Source: Promethearchaeota archaeon
GTDB taxonomy: Archaea > Asgardarchaeota > Thorarchaeia > Thorarchaeales > Thorarchaeaceae
Direction of reading: 5' to 3'
Assembly (NCBI GenBank): GCA_027031765.1
Contig: JALVPN010000012.1
Location: 2,741 to 14,776, forward strand
Length of the DNA: 12,036 bases
Shown here: piece by piece, positions 1 to 7,619 of the stretch
Layout of the letters: each line of letters opens with the position of its first letter
Numbering within the stretch: the first letter of the stretch is position 1
The notes under the pieces: model-generated
Databases searched by the model: none
Seen by the model: the letters and a program-made list of their open reading frames with translations, nothing else
Told to the model about the DNA's origin: nothing
Program-made: the position numbers and the translations under genes

Positions 1-420
1 TTCCTCGTCAGCTCCGTGGCTGCAGTGGGCCTCGTACCCTTCGATGCCCCGGTGGCCGACTCGGAGGTGCTGTTCGGCTGGCGGACGGAGTTCTCAGGCA
101 TCTACTTCACCATGACGTACTTTGCGGAGTTCGCAGAGCAGCTCCTGTACAGTGCACTGATGGTCTCCCTGTTCCTTGGCGGCTCCAATGGGCTGCCATA
201 CGTACCACCAGTAGTGAACTTCCTCATCAAGCTCCTCGTGGTGCTCTTCGTGTTCATCGTTGTGACGTCAGCGTTCTACCGGATCCGACAGGACCAGATC
301 GTGCGGTACAGCTGGAAGTACCTGCTGCCACTGTCCGTGCTGAACATCGCACTTGCCCTCGTGGCAGTTGCCTACATCCCCGGACTGGCAGCCGCCCTCG
401 GGACAACAGGAGGTGGGTAA
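1..420 (+). CDS. nuoH: Complex I-like membrane subunit H (NuoH/ND1 family), C-terminal part; 5'-truncated by the window edge
   Basis: Frame 1 is open from base 1 (FLVSSVAAVGLVPFD...) to TAA 418-420. It has ND1-family motifs PFDxPxAxSE, G-W-x-TEFSG, FAE, LFLGG, RxRxDQ and WKxLLPL, and lies directly upstream of nuoI. Confidence 0.92.
   Translation, partial: FLVSSVAAVGLVPFDAPVADSEVLFGWRTEFSGIYFTMTYFAEFAEQLLYSALMVSLFLGGSNGLPYVPPVVNFLIKLLVVLFVFIVVTSAFYRIRQDQIVRYSWKYLLPLSVLNIALALVAVAYIPGLAAALGTTGGG
409..415 (+). promoter_or_regulatory. Shine-Dalgarno-like site for nuoI; analogous sites at 837-841, 2351-2356, 4555-4561 and 6104-6109
   Basis: GGAGGTG-type sequence, complementary to the 16S 3' end, lies 6-8 nt before each of five consecutive internal start codons. 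Gene gaps are -4 to +12 nt. Confidence 0.7.
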
Positions 421-421
421 G

Positions 422-853
422 ATGGGAGCACTCGCGACGCTGGGCGACATGTTCAGGATACTCAGGCACGTGTTCCGCCAGATATTCACGCGGCCGTTCA
501 CGTACTTCTACCCCTTTGAGGACCGTTACTACCCTGAGCGGACCCGGGGCAGGCACATCCACATCCGTGAGAACTGCACCGGCTGCGGACAGTGCGTGAG
601 GGCATGCCCTACTGTGGCGATCAGGATTGACAAGTCCGACCGCAAGTACGAGAAGGACGCTGCCCTCTACTTTGACTATACGAGGTGCATCTTCTGTGGC
701 CTGTGCGTCCAGGCCTGCAGGTTCAATGCACTGTTCCACACAAAGGTCGTGGACATCAGCGAGGGGGAGAGAGAAGACCTCCTCTACGGCCCTGACAAGA
801 TCACCACGCTTGACAGGGAGCCCCTCGAGTGGCGCGGGAGGCGGTTCCGATGA
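422..853 (+). CDS. nuoI: Complex I-like 2x[4Fe-4S] ferredoxin subunit I (NuoI family), 143 aa
   Basis: ATG 422 follows SD-like GGAGGTG (409-415), 1 nt after the nuoH stop. Contains T-x-x-YP-F-E, RGRH, CTGCGQCVRACP and CIFCGLCVQAC, and C-terminal R-x-DLLY. The ORF-track start at 353 is upstream inside nuoH and is not favoured. Confidence 0.92.
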   Translation: MGALATLGDMFRILRHVFRQIFTRPFTYFYPFEDRYYPERTRGRHIHIRENCTGCGQCVRACPTVAIRIDKSDRKYEKDAALYFDYTRCIFCGLCVQACRFNALFHTKVVDISEGEREDLLYGPDKITTLDREPLEWRGRRFR

Positions 854-2352
854 TACCGTTCATGGCACTGTCACTGGCAACGCTCTTCTTCGGTGGACTC
901 TTCATCTACATGGCCAAAGAGGCCTTGGGTCATGGTGCGGGGCGCGTTGCTACCGCCATCGCCGCGGTCTCTGCGGGCCTGATGGCACCACCCTTCTATC
1001 AGGCCTTCGTCGCGCGGACGGCCGTGCGGGAGGAGATGCATTGGTCAGAGGTGATGGGCAGCTTCGGCCTGTACCTCGATGGCATTGCGGCCCCCATCAC
1101 ACTGGCAGTGGTCGTCCTGGGCCTACTCTCAGTCCTGTACGCTGTCGGGTACACCGAGCACACTGAGCACAGGGCCACGTTCTTTGCCAACCACCTGTTC
1201 TTCGTCATGGGCATGCAGTGGGTGACCCTGGCCACCAACCTGCTTGAGTTCTTCATCGCGTGGGAGATCATGCTGGTGCCCAGCTACTTCCTCATCCTCT
1301 TCTGGGGGCTGCCCGAAACACGCCGCAGGACTGCCATGAAGTTCTGGCTCTACACACAGTCCGGCGCCATGTGTATCCTTGTGGGCTTTGGCCTGCTGTA
1401 CTACTTTACCGGCTCGTTCGAGATGGACACGATAGTCCAGCTCCTGCCCACGTTCATCGGACAGCTTGATGCCCTCAAGCTCATCTTCGTACTGCTGGCC
1501 GCCGGGTTTCTGGTCAAGATGGCAGTGTTCCCACTCCACTGGTGGCTGCCACCCGTGCACGCTGAGGCGCCCACTCCCATCTCGGTACTGCTGTCGGGTG
1601 CGATGATAGAGACCGGCGCATACGCACTGGTGCGGTTCGGCACCATCATGCTCGGCCCTGCTGCTGCAGCCCTCTCATTTGGCCTCGGCGTGCTGGGCGT
1701 GCTGACCATGTTCTATGGTGGCCTCATGGCCCTCGTGCAGGCGGACATAAAGAGGCTCCTCGCATACTCCTCGGTCTCACAGATGGGCTACGTCCTGTTC
1801 GCACTGGGGATGTACACGACCTACGGGGTCGCAGGTGGGCTCTTCCACCTGATAGGCCATGCCTTCTCAAAGGGCCTCCTGTTCATGACCGCCGGCGCCG
1901 TGATACACCAGACCGGCCTGCGCGATGTCCACAAGATGGGTGGCCTGTCCAACAAGATGCCCGTGACCGCGTTCTCAGCTGCCATCGGCGCCATGAGCAT
2001 TGCTGGCAGCCCGCCACTGGTGGGTTTCATCGGTGAGTTGATGATGTTCCTCGGCGGCTTCCAGGCCGCCATGGTCAGCGGTACCGGGGTGGCCAGGCCC
2101 GAGTTCCTGTTCCTCGGCATAGTCGCGGTGTCGAGCTCGATACTGAGCGCCGGGTACATGCTCAGGTTCATTGCAAAGGTCTTCCTGGGCCCGAGCCCAG
2201 AGGAGCTCGAAGAGGTCACAGAGGCCCCACGGACGATGACTGCTGCCATGGCCCTGCTGGCAGCCCTCATAGTGGTGTTCGGGATATTCCCCGGCCCCGC
2301 CCTGGACGTGATATTCCCTGCTGTGGAGGCGATCAGCAACATAATACCGTGA
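850..2352 (+). CDS. Additional proton-pumping antiporter-like subunit (NuoM/MrpD-like), 500 aa
   Basis: ATGA overlap with the nuoI stop (850-853) and GGAGG at 837-841. Polytopic hydrophobic protein with LDG, FFIAWE (TM5 Glu), KFWLYT, VKMAVFPLHWWLP-x-x-HAEAPTP (TM7 Lys), LLAYSSVSQMG, HAFSKGLLF and PPLVGFIGE. Family membership is clear, but the subfamily (NuoM vs MrpD/MbhH-like) is ambiguous. Confidence 0.88.
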   Translation: MIPFMALSLATLFFGGLFIYMAKEALGHGAGRVATAIAAVSAGLMAPPFYQAFVARTAVREEMHWSEVMGSFGLYLDGIAAPITLAVVVLGLLSVLYAVGYTEHTEHRATFFANHLFFVMGMQWVTLATNLLEFFIAWEIMLVPSYFLILFWGLPETRRRTAMKFWLYTQSGAMCILVGFGLLYYFTGSFEMDTIVQLLPTFIGQLDALKLIFVLLAAGFLVKMAVFPLHWWLPPVHAEAPTPISVLLSGAMIETGAYALVRFGTIMLGPAAAALSFGLGVLGVLTMFYGGLMALVQADIKRLLAYSSVSQMGYVLFALGMYTTYGVAGGLFHLIGHAFSKGLLFMTAGAVIHQTGLRDVHKMGGLSNKMPVTAFSAAIGAMSIAGSPPLVGFIGELMMFLGGFQAAMVSGTGVARPEFLFLGIVAVSSSILSAGYMLRFIAKVFLGPSPEELEEVTEAPRTMTAAMALLAALIVVFGIFPGPALDVIFPAVEAISNIIP

Positions 2353-2364
2353 GGTGCACAGAGA

Positions 2365-4566
2365 ATGCTCTTCGGACTGCCGTACTATCTCATCCTTGTG
2401 CTCCCCCTTGCAGGTGGGCTGCTGGTGCCCGTGGTGGGACGCATCAGCGCAAAGGCCCGCGACTGGACGCCTGCAGTCATAATGGGTATTGCCATGGTCT
2501 TCTGCTGGTCGCTCCTGCCCGAGGTCAACAGCCCCACAGGCACGACCAGCTGGGTCTGGGTCGCAGCGCTTGACCTGCGCTTCGGAGTCCTCCTCGACCC
2601 GCTCTCTGTGGTCATGGCCGTACTGTCGAGCACGCTGTGTTTCCTGATCTATGTCTACTCCACCGAGTACATGGCCCACGAGGACGACCGTGACAGGTTC
2701 TTCTTCCTCATGCTCACATTCGGTGGGGGTATGCTCACCCTCGTGCTCAGCGACAACCTCCTCATCGCCTTCATCGGCTGGGAGATCATGGGCTTCTGTT
2801 CTTACGGCCTCATCGGTTTCTGGAACGACAAGAAGAACCCCCCTGAGAGGGAGCCCGACGGCATTGAGTACAGGAACCCGCTCCTGCAGTTCGAGACCGA
2901 GGGCGAGTACAACACCCACTGCGGGACAAAGGCGTTCATTGTCACCAGGATAGGTGACGCGTTCATGCTCGGGGGGATACTCCTGCTGTTCCTGTTCACC
3001 GGCACCTTCTCGTTCACGGAGATGGCAGAGGACGCACAGGGCTGGTGGGAGGTGATGTCGGGCATCGGCATGCTCGTACCCACCTTCTTGCTCATCTTTG
3101 CAGGCGCCATTGGCAAGTCCGGACAGGCGCCGCTCCAGGTCTGGCTACCCGAGGCCATGGCCGGCCCGACATCTGTGAGTGCGCTCATCCACGCAGCGAC
3201 CATGGTGAAGGCTGGTGTCTACATCACGGCCCGTTTCCTGGTCACCATGGCAGGTGCTGCCGGCAGTGAGGGCACCACCGGCCACGCGTTCCTGCCACTC
3301 CAGATGGTCGGCATGGGTGCTGCGTCCCAGTTCTTCACGGTGGTGGCAGTGGTCGGGGCAGTGACTGCGCTCATGACCGCCACCATGGGCATGGTGTCCA
3401 ACGAACTGAAACAGGTGCTCGCATTCAGCACCCTGAGCCAGCTCGGGTACATGATGCTGGCCATCGGCACCGGCGGTCTCCTCGCCCACTATGAGGAGGC
3501 ATACCTGAGTGGTGTCCTCCATGTCGTCAGTCACGGTGCCTTCAAGGCACTCCTGTTCCTCGCCTCTGGGGGCATCATCCACGCCCTGCACACCAAGTAC
3601 ATGACGAAGATGGGCGGGCTCAAGGAACACATGCGCAAGACGTTCATAGTGATGTGGGTGGGCGTACTGGCGCTGTCAGGGATCCCGCCGTTCTCAGGCT
3701 TCTGGTCAAAGGACTCCATAATCGAGTACACCTACGAGCTCGCGCTCCACGAGCCGCTCGGACTCGTACTGTTCGCGTTCGCCGTGCTCGCAGCAGCATG
3801 CACGATATTCTACAGCATCCGGCTCATGGGGCTCACATTCTACGGCCCGCCAAGGGGCCAGGGCGGCGACAGTGAGGACGGGCACGCAGGTCACGGTCAC
3901 GGGGAGGGACACATGCCCCACGACCCCGGCCCGGCCATGATGGTCCCACTGTACATCCTCGCAGCATTCACCGTCCTCGCCTTTGCCGTGTTCCCGTTCA
4001 TCGAGGCGCTGGTGCTCCAGACCGGGCCGCTGACGGCAGAGGGGTGGGCCGAAACGCTGGGACACATGGTGGCCGCAAAGGTGACCATGCCCGGCCTCGT
4101 CCCGTTCGTACTGACAGTGGCGGCCCTGCTGGTCGGTGGGATACCGGCCTACGTCATCTACATACGGAACGCGGACACACCGAACAGGCTCGTACCCGAG
4201 TCCGGGGTCAGGCGGAGGGTCTACAACTTCCTCCGTCACAGGTGGTACATCAACGAACTGTACTACTGGCTGCTGTACCAGTTCCTGCGGGTGACGAGCT
4301 GGTGGCGGGAGCACGTGGACAACCGTGTGATTGACGGGATTGACTTCAAGTCCGCTGACACCGCCGTCTCGCTCTCCGGCCGCGTGCGCTGGTTCGACGA
4401 CCACGTTGTCGACGGCCTCGCTGAGGGCATCTCGAGGACAAGTGTTGGGATTTCAGAGAGCGGCCAGGCCGTGCAGACGGGCCGGGTCAATGACTACGTG
4501 TCGATGATGATGTTCGGCATCGGGATGCTCGTACTCATCGTCCTGATAACCCTGGGGGTGATATGA
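2365..4566 (+). CDS. nuoL: Complex I-like subunit L (NuoL/ND5 family), 733 aa, with extended lateral helix
   Basis: SD-like GAGGTG 2351-2356. Motifs LLDPLS, YSxxYM, DNLL, GWEIMGFCSYGLIGFW, KAFIVTRIGD, GKSGQAPLQVWLPEAMAGPTSVSALIHAATMVKAG, LAFSTLSQLGYM, HGAFKALLFL, GIPPFSGFWSKD, WYINELY, QTG and a terminal TM helix. Confidence 0.95.
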   Translation: MLFGLPYYLILVLPLAGGLLVPVVGRISAKARDWTPAVIMGIAMVFCWSLLPEVNSPTGTTSWVWVAALDLRFGVLLDPLSVVMAVLSSTLCFLIYVYSTEYMAHEDDRDRFFFLMLTFGGGMLTLVLSDNLLIAFIGWEIMGFCSYGLIGFWNDKKNPPEREPDGIEYRNPLLQFETEGEYNTHCGTKAFIVTRIGDAFMLGGILLLFLFTGTFSFTEMAEDAQGWWEVMSGIGMLVPTFLLIFAGAIGKSGQAPLQVWLPEAMAGPTSVSALIHAATMVKAGVYITARFLVTMAGAAGSEGTTGHAFLPLQMVGMGAASQFFTVVAVVGAVTALMTATMGMVSNELKQVLAFSTLSQLGYMMLAIGTGGLLAHYEEAYLSGVLHVVSHGAFKALLFLASGGIIHALHTKYMTKMGGLKEHMRKTFIVMWVGVLALSGIPPFSGFWSKDSIIEYTYELALHEPLGLVLFAFAVLAAACTIFYSIRLMGLTFYGPPRGQGGDSEDGHAGHGHGEGHMPHDPGPAMMVPLYILAAFTVLAFAVFPFIEALVLQTGPLTAEGWAETLGHMVAAKVTMPGLVPFVLTVAALLVGGIPAYVIYIRNADTPNRLVPESGVRRRVYNFLRHRWYINELYYWLLYQFLRVTSWWREHVDNRVIDGIDFKSADTAVSLSGRVRWFDDHVVDGLAEGISRTSVGISESGQAVQTGRVNDYVSMMMFGIGMLVLIVLITLGVI

Positions 4567-4567
4567 G

Positions 4568-6112
4568 ATGCAGCTCGCAACCGCCACTGATATCCTCAAC
4601 AGCCTGCCAATGGATGTGCTCCCACTGATGCTCCTCCTGCCCCTGGGAGGCGCCGTGGTCGCATACGCCCTCGGGGACCGTGGGGCCCGGGCCGTGACGC
4701 TCCTTGTCTCTGCCGCCGAGCTGGTGCTCTCAGTCGTCCTGGCACTGGCCTTTGACCCGTCAATCGCACCGTCAGACCCAAGTGCCGGGATGCAGTACGT
4801 CTGGTCGGTGACCGTCGGCAGGATACGGGCGGGCGGCAGCGAGACGGACCTCCAGTTCCTGGTGGGCGTCGACGGCATCTCTGTGGTCATGGTTGTCCTC
4901 TCGAACCTGGTGGTGTTCATTGCGGTGCTCGCATCACACCACATCCATGAGGCCCAGACCATGTACTATGCGCTCCTACAGACACTGATGACAGGCCTGC
5001 TGGGAGTGTTCATGGCCCTCGACCTCATTGCCTTCTTCGTCTTCTGGGAGCTCGTCCTGATACCGATGTTCTTCATCATTGGCCGCTGGGGCGAGGAGGG
5101 CTGCCAGCACGCTGCAGTCAAGTTCTTCATCTACACCCACCTCGGTTCAGTAGTGATGCTGGTCGGTTTCTTCGTGCTGTACTTTGTTGCCGAGCCACAC
5201 ACCTTCAACATGGTGGCGCTCCGGAACATGGGGCTGCCACCTGAGGTGCAGGTCGGCTTTGCGCTGGCCGTGTTCATGGGTGCAGGGGTGAAGCTCCCTG
5301 TGTGGCCGCTGCACAACTGGCTCCCCTGGGCACACGTGAAGGCACCCACGCCCGGTTCCGTGATCCTCGCAGGCATCCTGCTAAAGATGGGTGGCTACGG
5401 CTTCATACGACTCGGCCTCTGGATGGTGCCTGACGCCTTCGCGAGGCTCGGTATCGTCTTCGCCGCCCTCGCAGTGTTCACGTGCGTCTATGCAGCCCTC
5501 ACCGCCATGGCCCAGACCGACCTCAAGAGCATGGTGGCGTACACGTCCATCAACCACATGTCGTGGGTGCTGCTTGGTGTCGCAGTGGCCGCAGTGGGCA
5601 TGCAGCTGGGCCTCCAGTCTGCTGCGTCCCTGGCCGTCCAGGGGGCGGTGTTCATGATGTTCTCCCACGGGACAATCATCTCCGTCATGTTCATCATGGC
5701 AGGTCAGCTCAAGTACTCGGCCGGCACGAGAGAGATCCCAGAGGTCAGGGGACTGATGGAACGTGCACCACGCCTCTCCCGAGTGCTCGTCGTCGCGTCG
5801 CTTGCAGCCTTCGGCCTGCCGGGCTTCAGCGGCTTCGTTGCAGAGGCACTCGTCCTCTTCGGCTCTGTCAACGTCTACATCTGGACGGCGCTGATTGCGT
5901 TCGGGGTCTTCTTCACTGTGGGCTACCTGCTGTGGACACTGAACAGGATAGTGTTCAGCGACCCCGACCCGGAGGCGGAGGTCACAGACGCCACGGCTGC
6001 CGACCTCATAGCACCGGTACTGATGATGGTGCCTGTGTTGCTGCTCGGGGTCTGGCCAGACCTGGTGCTCACGCTGGTCGCGCCCGTGGCACAGTTCATG
6101 CTGGGAGGTTGA
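4568..6112 (+). CDS. nuoM: Complex I-like subunit M (NuoM/ND4 family), 514 aa
   Basis: ATG 1 nt after the nuoL stop, SD-like GGGGTGA 4555-4561. Canonical NuoM motifs GVDGIS, DLxxFFVFWELVLIPMFFIIGxWG, KFFIYT, VKLPVWPLHNWLPWAHVKAPTPGSVILAGILLKMGGYG, AYTSINHM, SHG, GLPGFSGFVAE and GVWP. Confidence 0.95.
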   Translation: MQLATATDILNSLPMDVLPLMLLLPLGGAVVAYALGDRGARAVTLLVSAAELVLSVVLALAFDPSIAPSDPSAGMQYVWSVTVGRIRAGGSETDLQFLVGVDGISVVMVVLSNLVVFIAVLASHHIHEAQTMYYALLQTLMTGLLGVFMALDLIAFFVFWELVLIPMFFIIGRWGEEGCQHAAVKFFIYTHLGSVVMLVGFFVLYFVAEPHTFNMVALRNMGLPPEVQVGFALAVFMGAGVKLPVWPLHNWLPWAHVKAPTPGSVILAGILLKMGGYGFIRLGLWMVPDAFARLGIVFAALAVFTCVYAALTAMAQTDLKSMVAYTSINHMSWVLLGVAVAAVGMQLGLQSAASLAVQGAVFMMFSHGTIISVMFIMAGQLKYSAGTREIPEVRGLMERAPRLSRVLVVASLAAFGLPGFSGFVAEALVLFGSVNVYIWTALIAFGVFFTVGYLLWTLNRIVFSDPDPEAEVTDATAADLIAPVLMMVPVLLLGVWPDLVLTLVAPVAQFMLGG

Positions 6113-6116
6113 ACAC

Positions 6117-7619
6117 ATGGTGTTACCGCTACAGCTCAGTGACTTGTTGCAGGCGCTCACGGCGCCTATACGTGATGTCCTCGTGCGGTTCGTCCCGGAA
6201 CAGTGGATGGGCTCGCTGCCCGCCCTGACCCTCGTCCTCTTCGCTGTGCTGGCCCTCCTCGTGGGCCGACACGTCAACCCGCTCCCTGTGAGCCTGCTCG
6301 GCGTCGTCCTGTCGGCGGTCACAGTCGTGACCCTTGACGCATCGACATACGGTAGCTCCTTCGGGGGACTGTTCGTCAGGGACGCGTTCTCAGACTTCTT
6401 CATCTACATCATCCTCATCGTGGCGGTGCTCGTCCTCGTCTCTTCCACTCTCTATGGTGGTGACAAGGGGCCCTACGACTTCCTCCTCCTGACATCCATG
6501 GCCGGTGCCATCTGGGTGGTCATGGCCACAGACCTCGTGGGCCTGTTCCTCGCCTGGGAGCTCATGTCGACCCCCACCTATGTGCTCACCGCCCTCGGCC
6601 CTCACAGGGGGGCTGTCGACGGCGCCGTGAAGTACTTCGTGATGGGGATGATGGCCTCTGCACTGATGCTGTTCGGGATTGCCCTTGTCTATGGCGTGAC
6701 CGGCAGCACCGAGCTGGCGACGGTAGCTCAGACCCTCAACACGATGTCTGCCGACCCGACGGTGGCCCCCACGATGTCACCGACCGTGCTCCTCGCCGTC
6801 GTGCTGTTCATCCTCTCCTTCGGCTTCAAGACCGGCATATTCCCGGGCTGGATGTGGGTGCCGGACACATACTCGACCGCTGACGGCAGCGTAACGGCCT
6901 ACCTCGCAGGTGCGACCAAGAAGACAGGTGTGAGCGCCCTCGTCAGGATCCTCATGGTCGGCCTGCTCGTGTCACAGCTTGAGTGGACCCTCCTGCTGGT
7001 AGTCGTCTCCATAATGACCATGGTCATAGGCAATGTCCTTGCGCTGGCGCAGAAGAACATCATGAGAATGCTCGCCTACTCGAGCATCGCAATGATGGGA
7101 TACCTCTTCATCGGGCTGGCAGCAGGCACTGAGTTCGGCCTCGCAGCAGCCATCTTCCATGCATTCATCCACGCCCTCCTCAAGACCACAGCCTTCATAC
7201 TCGTCTGGGCCATGGCGGTCAGGCTCAGAAAGGTGATAACATATGACGACCTGGTCGGGCTCAGCGAGCGCTCGCCACTCGCGGCTGCCCTGCTGTGCCT
7301 CGCCGTGTTGGGTCTGCTCGGCGTGCCGGTGACTGGCGGCTTCTGGTCAAAGCTATTCCTGTTTCAGAGCGCCGTGGAGGCCGACATGTGGTGGCTGGCC
7401 CTGATAGGGGCGCTGAACACGGTATTCTCACTGGGCTACTACCTCCGGGTGGTGAGGTCGTGCTACATGGCCGCACCGACAAGGGATGACACCGTTGCGC
7501 TTGCAAGAGGACCACTCATCGTGTCCGTGCTGGCCATGCTGGTGGCGACTGTGCTAGCAGTTGTGCCTGGCCTCGTGTTCGACTATGCCCTTGTTGCAGC
7601 CCGTGCAGTGATGGGCTAA
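6117..7619 (+). CDS. nuoN: Complex I-like subunit N (NuoN/ND2 family), 500 aa
   Basis: SD-like GGAGGT 6104-6109. Motifs DLVGLFLAWELMSTPTYVL, KYFVMG, LFGIALVYGxTGS, FGFKTG, WVPDxY, GNVLALAQKNIxRMLAYSSIA and GxPxTGGFWSKLFLF, in the terminal position after nuoM. Confidence 0.9.
   Translation: MVLPLQLSDLLQALTAPIRDVLVRFVPEQWMGSLPALTLVLFAVLALLVGRHVNPLPVSLLGVVLSAVTVVTLDASTYGSSFGGLFVRDAFSDFFIYIILIVAVLVLVSSTLYGGDKGPYDFLLLTSMAGAIWVVMATDLVGLFLAWELMSTPTYVLTALGPHRGAVDGAVKYFVMGMMASALMLFGIALVYGVTGSTELATVAQTLNTMSADPTVAPTMSPTVLLAVVLFILSFGFKTGIFPGWMWVPDTYSTADGSVTAYLAGATKKTGVSALVRILMVGLLVSQLEWTLLLVVVSIMTMVIGNVLALAQKNIMRMLAYSSIAMMGYLFIGLAAGTEFGLAAAIFHAFIHALLKTTAFILVWAMAVRLRKVITYDDLVGLSERSPLAAALLCLAVLGLLGVPVTGGFWSKLFLFQSAVEADMWWLALIGALNTVFSLGYYLRVVRSCYMAAPTRDDTVALARGPLIVSVLAMLVATVLAVVPGLVFDYALVAARAVMG

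What the first reader, a model, noticed from the sequence alone, without database searches (positions are those of the whole stretch)
4318..4473. 26-residue tandem duplication in the NuoL lateral amphipathic helix
Seen: DNRVIDGIDFKSADTAVSLSGRVRWF (4318-4395) is followed at exactly 78 nt by DDHVVDGLAEGISRTSVGISESGQAV (4396-4473), and then directly by the conserved QTG. The copies share 7/26 identities (D, V, D, G, T, V, S) plus conservative swaps. WYINELY to QTG spans 77 residues here, versus about 50 in canonical NuoL/Nqo12 as I recall. Inference: an old internal duplication lengthened the helix by roughly 40 A (26 x 1.5 A), about one antiporter width. This is independent structural support that the fourth subunit is incorporated.
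Basis: partly seen in the sequence, partly recalled or inferred. Interest (0 to 1): 0.75.

Follow-up and report, generated by a model that had tools for sequence, protein, structure and literature searches.

The report
NuoL strap helix, one module longer
In this Thorarchaeal (Asgard) complex I-like operon with four pump genes, the long surface helix of NuoL holds two copies of a 26-residue module instead of one; this is the already published signature of four-pump complex I, and it fits but does not prove that the fourth pump sits in the enzyme.

Summary
NuoL residues 652-677 and 678-703 (window 4318-4473) are two in-register copies of the D-x-x-[VI]-[VI]-D-G module of the lateral helix HL. 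They share 7 of 26 residues and are followed at once by QTG and TM16. W627 to Q704 spans 77 residues, against 51 in solved NdhF1 and about 52 in this genome's own three-pump paralogue, a net +26.

AlphaFold2 places both copies in one continuous helix (626-700). Both are as conserved as the rest of the protein in 112 Thorarchaeal NuoLs. A NuoL clade across several Asgard groups shares the extra module, and wherever context is known the gene order is X-L-M-N. The duplication is therefore old.

- A 26-residue HL insertion in four-pump ("2M") complex I is published (Chadwick 2018, read through citing papers; Yu 2022).
- Every four-pump cluster I classified has the longer helix.
- At least 17 bacterial L-M-N operons have it too, and five such genomes hold no spare pump gene. 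The extension looks necessary but is not sufficient.
- The extra subunit X is MrpA/MrpD/NuoM-like, not a second NuoM.

This scan has made the same finding on other DNA, including another Thorarchaeon. It is a new member of a known kind.

The parts
2365..4566 (+). nuoL (733 aa), NuoL/Nqo12/ND5-type antiporter-like subunit with the C-terminal TM15-HL-TM16 extension
   Evidence: Pfam Proton_antipo_N and Proton_antipo_M. phmmer to solved NuoL/NdhF/ND5 chains. AF2 model mean pLDDT 88.5. VIA-align Z 44-46 to NuoL chains of solved complex I.
4096..4167 (+). TM15 (residues 578-601)
   Evidence: AF2 helix 578-601. Mean hydrophobicity 0.67.
4240..4317 (+). Anchor block of helix HL (residues 626-651), starting with the conserved R-W-Y-I-N-E-x-Y
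   Evidence: Conserved in 112 Thorarchaeal NuoLs. Same anchor in other NuoLs, 25-26 residues before the first D-x-x-[VI][VI]-D-G.
4318..4395 (+). HL module copy 1 (residues 652-677), the extra module
   Evidence: In-register hit of the single-module HMM across the Thorarchaeal family. Aligns to the single module of 6hum_F. Column conservation 0.79 against 0.78 for the whole protein.
4396..4473 (+). HL module copy 2 (residues 678-703), the copy that abuts QTG as the single module does in canonical NuoL
   Evidence: Single-module HMM 16.8 bits over all 31 positions. Aligns to the module of chloroplast NdhF, weak on its own. Conservation 0.75.
4240..4464 (+). Predicted continuous lateral helix HL (residues 626-700, 75 residues)
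   Evidence: AF2 with an 84-row alignment gives one DSSP helix 626-700. pLDDT falls from about 90 to about 61 along it. The own-genome three-pump paralogue gives 597-647 (51 residues, broken at 626-628, low confidence).
4474..4482 (+). Conserved QTG hinge (residues 704-706)
   Evidence: G706 is invariant in alignment A1. The AF2 helix breaks at 701-707.
4486..4551 (+). TM16 (residues 708-729), the far anchor of the strap
   Evidence: AF2 helix 708-729. Hydrophobicity 0.67.
829..2352 (+). Extra antiporter-like gene X (GTG 829, or ATG 850 overlapping the nuoI stop), the fourth pump candidate
   Evidence: Pfam Proton_antipo_M, E = 1.2e-72. Best solved relatives are MrpA, an MBS subunit and NuoM. 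About 30% identity to each of L, M and N. Conserved upstream of nuoL in every member of the NuoL clade with known context.
4568..6112 (+). nuoM
   Evidence: Pfam. The top solved hits are NuoM/ND4/NdhD, up to 254 bits; the last row listed is an Mrp/MBH subunit D at 118 bits.
6117..7619 (+). nuoN
   Evidence: Pfam Proton_antipo_M. Last gene of the cluster.
1..420 (+). 3' part of nuoH (frame 1), cut by the window start
   Evidence: Pfam NADHdh, E = 6e-32. tblastn with relatives' NuoH.
353..853 (+). nuoI (2x[4Fe-4S] ferredoxin-type). The true start is probably downstream of 353
   Evidence: Pfam Fer4 families. Relatives are mostly 143 aa.

Best explanation
This is the NuoL subunit of a complex I-like enzyme of a Thorarchaeon (Asgard archaea). 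On this contig the cluster reads nuoK-C-D-H-I-X-L-M-N, with four antiporter-like (pump) genes. No nuoE, F or G lie on it, and the contig begins inside nuoK.

NuoL ends in TM15, a long surface helix (HL) and TM16. HL is built from 26-residue blocks: an anchor block (R-W-Y-I-N-E...) followed by modules that begin D-x-x-[VI]-[VI]-D-G. The last module abuts the QTG hinge. Canonical three-pump enzymes have one such module, and this protein has two.

The second module most likely arose by an ancient in-frame tandem duplication of 78 nt. That happened in the ancestor of an Asgard-wide NuoL clade. It added about 39 A of helix (26 x 1.5 A), roughly one pump width.

Inferred mechanism: HL is a strap that braces the neighbouring pumps, as described for complex I and Mrp. 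The extra module lets TM16 still reach its docking site when three rather than two neighbours (X, M, N) lie between it and the NuoL core. The enzyme could then move one more ion per cycle.

Shown here: the insertion, its module character, its conservation, its predicted helicity, and its constant co-occurrence with X in this clade.
Inferred: the duplication event itself, that X sits under the helix, and the stoichiometry.
For: - Sequence and coordinates.
- Net +26: 77 residues here against 51 in 6hum_F and 51-58 in three-pump Asgard NuoL-like proteins, including the paralogue on contig C105 of this genome.
- Module homology: the single-module HMM hits both copies in register in the Thorarchaeal NuoLs listed. 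In a bacterial two-module NuoL, both modules align to the same single module of a solved NdhF1. NuoLs with 1, 2 or 3 modules differ by exact multiples of 26. Mean copy-copy identity is 6.3/26 against about 2/26 for the neighbouring block.
- Structure: one helix 626-700, a break at QTG, then TM16. Both copies are non-hydrophobic and charged. Z is 44-46 to solved NuoL chains, and no listed alignment reaches beyond model residue 694, so TM16 (708-729) is never included.
- Selection: both copies are as conserved as the whole protein in 112 sequences.
- Age and linkage: on a tree of the NuoL core with HL left out, the query lies in a starred clade of 15 rows, all with two modules. All 12 members with known context have X-L-M-N: 7 Thorarchaeal, plus G025, G108, G026, P0127 and P0128. 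Source names include Heimdallarchaeota and Asgardarchaeia.
- Across the 42 Asgard-type rows (38 surveyed loci with complete context plus the query, L075, P0127 and P0128), pump genes = blocks + 1 in 36 or 37. These include two-pump clusters with no D-module and a five-pump cluster with three. Counting four bacterial-type rows as well, it holds in 36 of 44.
- All three bacterial L-M-M-N clusters whose NuoL could be classified also have the extra module.
- Literature: a 26-aa HL insertion is reported for four- and five-pump complexes (PMC9040806; PMC6606698). HL braces the pumps and links their TM7s (PMC7419157).
Against: - The same one-module extension occurs in at least 17 bacterial operons with only L, M and N. 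Two-module extensions occur in two more. Five such genomes have only complete three-gene sets and no orphan pump gene. A longer HL can therefore exist without a fourth pump.
- Two Asgard lineages break the rule: three D-modules with four pump genes (L055, L071), and two D-modules on an L-X pair outside any nuo cluster (L047, L052, L074).
- Independent evolutionary contrasts are too few to test: 3 pairs, 2 in the same direction and 1 with no difference.
- Copy 1 of this particular protein matches the canonical module only weakly (-0.3 bits over 9 residues).
- No DNA-level repeat remains. Duplication cannot be told with certainty from an insertion shaped by the same contacts.
- AF2 confidence falls to about 61 at the C-terminal end of the helix.
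Confidence: 0.68

Rival explanations
1. The extra HL module has nothing to do with subunit X. As in the many bacterial three-pump operons with a two-module NuoL, the longer helix serves another purpose. It might reach a different docking site for TM16, hold an unrecognised partner, or simply be tolerated. X would then sit elsewhere, for example distal to NuoL, or work separately.
For: - At least 17 bacterial L-M-N operons have the extra module, and two have two extra modules.
- Five such genomes hold no orphan pump gene.
- Asgard exceptions exist: L055/L071 and L047/L052/L074.
- Yu et al. report HL insertions in NuoL of one-nuoM clusters (PMC9040806).
Against: - In the Asgard sample no three-pump cluster (0 of 21) has the extra module, and all 12 X-L-M-N clusters of this clade have it.
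- This genome's own three-pump paralogue has the short helix.
- Two-pump clusters with no D-module and a five-pump cluster with three follow the same rule at independent places on the tree.
Confidence: 0.2
2. The 26 residues are an insertion of another origin, not a duplication. They came to resemble the neighbouring module because each stretch of HL must make the same contacts with a pump subunit (convergence under a structural period).
For: - Identity is only 7/26 here and 3-9/26 in the family.
- There is no DNA similarity.
- Copy 1 of this protein scores about 0 bits against the canonical module.
- 28-32 other window pairs in the protein score as high.
Against: - The insert length equals the module length exactly, and the motif is in register.
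- Bacterial two- and three-module NuoLs have copies up to 12/26 identical.
- Both modules of such a protein align to one module of a solved NdhF1.
- Tandem duplication is the simplest source of an exact one-unit gain.
Confidence: 0.1
3. There is no real feature: the two segments resemble each other by chance, and there is no net insertion.
For: The internal similarity alone is not significant after correcting for all window pairs.
Against: The net +26 residues was measured against solved and paralogous NuoLs. The feature is conserved in 112 relatives.
Confidence: 0.01

Closest known systems
2M-type complex I (Chadwick, Hemp, Fischer & Orphan 2018, ISME J 12:2668). The paper is not held, so I read it only through citing papers PMC6606698, PMC9040806, PMC7300363 and PMC7419157
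   Same: Four antiporter-like genes in one nuo cluster and a lengthened NuoL; the insertion in helix HL is about 26 residues. No nuoE, F or G lie on the contig here, and some 2M clades also lack them. Archaeal (thaumarchaeal) examples are published. In the Nitrospira-type L-M-M-N clusters I fetched (L083, L094), the extra HL block is likewise a diverged copy of the D-x-x-V-I-D-G module.
   Different: The extra gene here lies upstream of nuoL (X-L-M-N), not beside nuoM (L-M-M-N). X is not a NuoM duplicate. It is about 30% identical to each of L, M and N, carries a weak Proton_antipo_N signal, and matches MrpA best among solved chains. On the NuoL core tree the Asgard clade is separate from the bacterial two-module NuoLs, so it is probably an independent origin. 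I found no paper in the held library describing this form in Thorarchaeota.
Complex_I_3 of 'Ca. Manganitrophaceae' (Yu et al. 2022, mBio, PMC9040806)
   Same: [quoted passage not shown]
   Different: It has five pumps and two MrpD-like subunits in place of NuoL, and it is bacterial. The same paper notes HL insertions in NuoL of clusters without an extra pump, which is the caveat confirmed here.
Canonical NuoL/Nqo12/ND5/NdhF1 and MrpA helix HL (solved structures 3rko, 4he8, 6hum, 8qby, 7qru)
   Same: The fold matches (Z 44-46), as do the TM15-HL-TM16 layout, the anchor motif, one D-x-x-[VI][VI]-D-G module and QTG. The bracing role is described in PMC7419157. E. coli HL mutagenesis is described in PMC3274701.
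   Different: The solved chains that could be aligned have a single module. This one has two, so the helix is 26 residues longer.
Bacterial one-nuoM operons with a two- or three-module NuoL (Zixibacteria, Udaeobacter, Melioribacter, Ignavibacteria, Terriglobia, Acidimicrobiia, Planctomycetota and others)
   Same: The same exact 26-residue module gain, at the same place in HL.
   Different: They have no fourth pump gene in the operon, nor, in the five genomes searched, anywhere else. What the extra length does there is unexplained.

Membership tests
NuoL/Nqo12/ND5 family (complex I subunit L) | Antiporter-like core with Proton_antipo_N and Proton_antipo_M domains | tested here: met
   PF00662 E = 7.7e-14 and PF00361 E = 4.7e-59. 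phmmer E = 8.5e-84 to NdhF1 and about 1e-61 to E. coli NuoL.
NuoL/Nqo12/ND5 family (complex I subunit L) | C-terminal extension of TM15, a long lateral amphipathic helix and TM16 | tested here: met
   AF2 gives helices 578-601, 626-700 and 708-729. The hydrophobicity profile agrees. VIA-align Z 44-46 to solved NuoL chains.
NuoL/Nqo12/ND5 family (complex I subunit L) | Encoded in a nuo-type cluster next to nuoM and nuoN | tested here: met
   Order K-C-D-H-I-X-L-M-N on contig C12.
2M-type (four-pump) complex I | Four antiporter-like genes in one complex I gene cluster | tested here: met
   Four PF00361 genes at 829-7619. The same holds in all 12 clade members with known context.
2M-type (four-pump) complex I | NuoL helix HL lengthened by about 26 residues relative to three-pump forms | tested here: met
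   77 against 51 residues from anchor W to QTG. The own paralogue and 20 other three-pump Asgard NuoLs give 51-58.
2M-type (four-pump) complex I | The extra subunit is a duplicate of NuoM placed next to nuoM | tested here: not met
   X lies upstream of nuoL. It is 30% identical to M, 29% to N and 30% to L. Its best solved hits are MrpA at 196 bits, then NuoM at 175. The resident M scores 254 bits to NuoM.
2M-type (four-pump) complex I | The fourth subunit is physically part of the membrane arm, under HL | not testable with these tools
   The whole arm exceeds the 1000-residue limit of complex prediction. The one job that fitted gave no verdict (reported only under Tried and rejected).
Tandem internal duplication | Two adjacent segments of equal length that are homologous to each other and to a single segment in relatives | tested here: inconclusive
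   The length is exact, the motif is in register, and the HMM hits both copies across the family. In this protein the copy-copy signal is weak, no DNA signal is left, and convergence cannot be excluded.

The most novel reading that the evidence does not exclude
In Asgard archaea, helix HL is a modular ruler whose number of 26-residue blocks co-evolves with the number of pump subunits, from two to five (pump genes = blocks + 1). The X-L-M-N enzyme would then be an Asgard-wide origin of a four-pump complex I-like enzyme, independent of the bacterial one, that recruited an MrpA/MrpD-like subunit rather than a NuoM copy. A close relative (locus L049) went on to five pumps.
Probability: 0.35. Interest if true: 0.5.

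Novelty: new member of a known kind. Interest (0 to 1): 0.3.

Why it matters
If X is really strapped into the arm, Thorarchaeota and other Asgard archaea run a complex I-like enzyme with a higher ion-to-electron ratio. That bears on how these low-energy, ferredoxin- or quinone-linked anaerobes conserve energy, or drive reverse electron flow.

A 26-residue HL extension is widely used as the signature of a fourth pump, yet it is common in bacterial enzymes that have only three. It should not be used alone to annotate four-pump complexes.

Tried and rejected
- Chadwick et al. 2018 could not be read. Its content is cited only through papers that quote it.
- Complex prediction with NuoL 575-733 and X gave 'no answer' (score 0.00, controls not run). 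This is no evidence either way. The full arm is too large for the tool.
- The independent-contrast test of module number against pump number gave only 3 usable pairs (2 in the same direction, 1 with no difference). It cannot reach significance.
- DNA-level repeat: 32/78 identities, nothing above background.
- Whole-protein self-comparison alone does not single out the pair.
- An apparent frameshift in nuoH just 5' of the window turned out to be a run of 10 N at C12:2731-2740. It is not a broken gene.
- A possible phase relation between the anchor block (Y-[IV]-[DN]-E) and the modules ([VI]-[VI]-D-G) was considered. I dropped it because the spacing I read off the block layouts is 27-28 residues, not 26.
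- Literature searches for this architecture in Thorarchaeota or other Asgard archaea found nothing in the held library.
Full report
**What is in the window.** The + strand carries the 3' end of nuoH (1-420; Pfam NADHdh) and nuoI (to 853; Fer4 families). An antiporter-like gene X follows (829 or 850 to 2352), then nuoL (2365-4566, 733 aa), nuoM (4568-6112) and nuoN (6117-7619). All four of the last carry Pfam Proton_antipo_M. Upstream on the same contig lie nuoK, C and D. The 120 closest NuoL relatives are Thorarchaeotal proteins of 725-783 aa at 63-75% identity, so the organism is an Asgard archaeon.

**The observation.** They are residues 652-677 and 678-703, and QTG follows at 704-706.
- They share 7 of 26 residues with an ungapped BLOSUM62 score of 25. 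Shuffling gives p about 1e-4 for that fixed register.
- Among all 232,903 pairs of 26-residue windows of the protein, about 30 score as high. Most of those are hydrophobic TM pairs.
- The DNA copies are only 32/78 identical.

The internal resemblance by itself is therefore modest. The comparative evidence is what makes it real.

**Net insertion.**
- From the W of the anchor R-W-Y-I-N-E-L-Y to the Q of QTG is 77 residues here.
- In T. elongatus NdhF1 (6hum_F) the same distance is 51, W580 to Q631 (alignments).
- In 21 Asgard NuoL-like proteins from three-pump clusters it is 51-58. This includes the paralogue on contig C105 of this same genome.
- AlphaFold2 with an 84-row alignment (mean pLDDT 88.5) gives TM15 at 578-601, one continuous helix at 626-700, a break at the QTG hinge, and TM16 at 708-729.
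- The three-pump paralogue, folded the same way, gives 597-647, about 51 residues, at low confidence.
- Both copies have mean hydrophobicity near 0 with 6-8 charged residues, against 0.67 for TM15 and TM16.
- The model matches solved NuoL chains at Z 44-46. No listed alignment reaches beyond model residue 694, so TM16 (708-729) is never included, as expected if it is displaced.

**Module character.** I counted back from QTG in blocks of 26. Representative NuoLs (50% clusters) fall into classes with one, two or three blocks that begin D-x-x-[VI]-[VI]-D-G. An anchor block starting [KR]-[WY]-Y-x-[DN]-E-x-Y precedes them.
- An HMM built from the single block of 27 one-module NuoLs hits the listed Thorarchaeal NuoLs twice, in register.
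- In this protein copy 2 scores 16.8 bits. Copy 1 scores only -0.3 bits over its first nine residues, though relatives reach 10.3 bits.
- In a bacterial two-module NuoL, both modules align to the one module of solved NdhF1.
- Copy-to-copy identity in 69 two-module proteins averages 6.3/26 (maximum 12), against about 2/26 for the neighbouring block. The 110 Thorarchaeal proteins give 3-9/26.
- Both copies are as conserved as the protein as a whole (0.79 and 0.75 against 0.78).

An ancient in-frame tandem duplication is the simplest reading. Convergence of an unrelated insert under the same contacts cannot be excluded.

**Age and linkage to the fourth pump.** I built a tree of the NuoL core with HL left out (FastTree, 126 rows). 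It places the query in a starred clade of 15 rows, all with two modules. Source names in that clade include Heimdallarchaeota and Asgardarchaeia. All 12 members whose context I could read have the order X-L-M-N.
- Across the 42 Asgard-type rows (38 surveyed loci with complete context plus the query, L075, P0127 and P0128), the number of pump genes equals the number of HL blocks plus one in 36 or 37. Counting four bacterial-type rows as well, the rule holds in 36 of 44.
- Two-pump clusters have no D-module (L068, L073).
- 21 three-pump clusters have one.
- The X-L-M-N clusters have two.
- A five-pump cluster has three (L049; one of its extra pump genes is in two pieces).
- Exceptions are L055/L071 (three D-modules, four pumps) and L047/L052/L074 (two D-modules on an L-X pair outside any nuo cluster).
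- Because relatives are not independent, only three contrasts exist (two concordant, one neutral). No statistical claim can be made.

**The caveat.** The bacterial-type NuoLs with extra modules that I looked up sit in ordinary operons with only L, M and N.
- In a survey of 80 bacterial loci, three two-module NuoLs sit in L-M-M-N clusters: two Nitrospira-type and one verrucomicrobial.
- Together with the two loci, at least 17 two-module NuoLs sit in L-M-N operons from many phyla.
- In five of those genomes a whole-genome search for PF00361 found only complete three-gene sets (plus one further pair in G302) and no orphan pump gene.
- Yu et al. had noted the same for Manganitrophaceae.

Every four-pump cluster I could classify has the longer helix, but the longer helix does not imply a fourth pump. 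It satisfies a necessary condition and is not independent proof.

**Nature of X.** X is about 30% identical to each of L, M and N. Its best solved relatives are MrpA (196 bits), a Pyrococcus MBS subunit and E. coli NuoM. The resident NuoM is a clear NuoM/ND4 orthologue at 254 bits. The enzyme is therefore not literally '2M'. It is a four-pump form with a different extra subunit and gene order, probably of independent origin.

**Relation to what is known.**
- The lengthened NuoL of 2M complexes, and a 26-amino-acid HL insertion read as room for an extra pump, are published.
- Archaeal 2M forms are known in Thaumarchaeota.
- Four-pump enzymes are accepted in the structural literature as an extension of the Mrp-like two-pump unit, in which HL braces the pumps and links their TM7 helices.
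- I found no description of the Thorarchaeal or Asgard X-L-M-N form in the held library.
- This scan has reported the same module duplication on other genomes, including another Thorarchaeon and several bacteria with one nuoM. My results agree with those notes and were obtained independently here.

**Verdict.** This is a new member of a known kind. The extension is real, old, conserved and helical, and it fits a four-pump arm. It does not by itself show that X is incorporated.

Noticed in passing
L003:10001-12124, L001:520-2871, L005:3718-5769: Bacterial-type NuoLs with three D-x-x-V-V-D-G modules at exact 26-residue spacing (HL about 52 residues longer than canonical). L003 sits in a plain nuoA-B-C-D-H-I-J-K-L-M-N operon and L001 in a K-L-M-N stretch, each with only three pump genes. 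In L005 the contig ends inside nuoM. What the surplus helix does is unexplained.
   Followed up: partly
L080, L088, L092, L093, L098-L100, L104, L105, L115, L123, L131, L136, L146, L148, L076, L077: Two-module NuoL in L-M-N operons across many bacterial phyla. Five of these genomes (G302-G306) hold only complete three-gene pump sets (G302 also one further pair) and no orphan. NuoM and NuoN in these operons are somewhat longer by my own count from the table (medians about 539 and 504 aa, against about 498 and 482 aa).
   Followed up: partly
L049:5873-14106: Asgard cluster (genome G031) with five antiporter-like units: K, X in two pieces (149 + 347 aa, overlapping by 4 nt), X of 531 aa, L, M, N. 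Its NuoL has three D-modules. The NuoL core is very close to that of a three-pump, one-module NuoL of the same family (L046; branch lengths 0.07 and 0.12). This suggests a recent expansion or a recombinant C-terminus.
   Followed up: partly
L068:3576-7137 and L073:8678-12600: Asgard clusters with only two pump genes (L + X). Their NuoL-like subunit has the anchor block directly followed by QTG, with no D-module. This is the short end of the series.
   Followed up: no
L055:5855-12950 and L071:2671-9776: Asgard K-X-L-M-N clusters whose 766-aa NuoL has three D-modules and an extra hydrophobic helix after TM16. That is one module more than the pump count predicts.
   Followed up: no
G000:C105:8606-14000 (L063): The same genome has a second cluster, K-L-X-X, with a 671-aa NuoL-like subunit and a short (about 51-residue) lateral helix. 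It served here as an internal control.
   Followed up: partly
G000:C12:2731-2740, immediately 5' of the window: A run of 10 N interrupts nuoH. About 7 residues are missing and the frame changes across it. This is an assembly gap or withheld bases, not evidence of a pseudogene.
   Followed up: yes
window 3847-3939 (NuoL residues 495-525): A His/Gly/Asp-rich loop before TM15 with pLDDT under 50 and poor conservation. T. elongatus NdhF1 has a His-rich stretch at the same place (alignment).
   Followed up: no
window 829-853: X can start at GTG 829 or at ATG 850. The ATG 850 start overlaps the nuoI stop (ATGA), which suggests translational coupling of the extra pump gene to the core operon.
   Followed up: no
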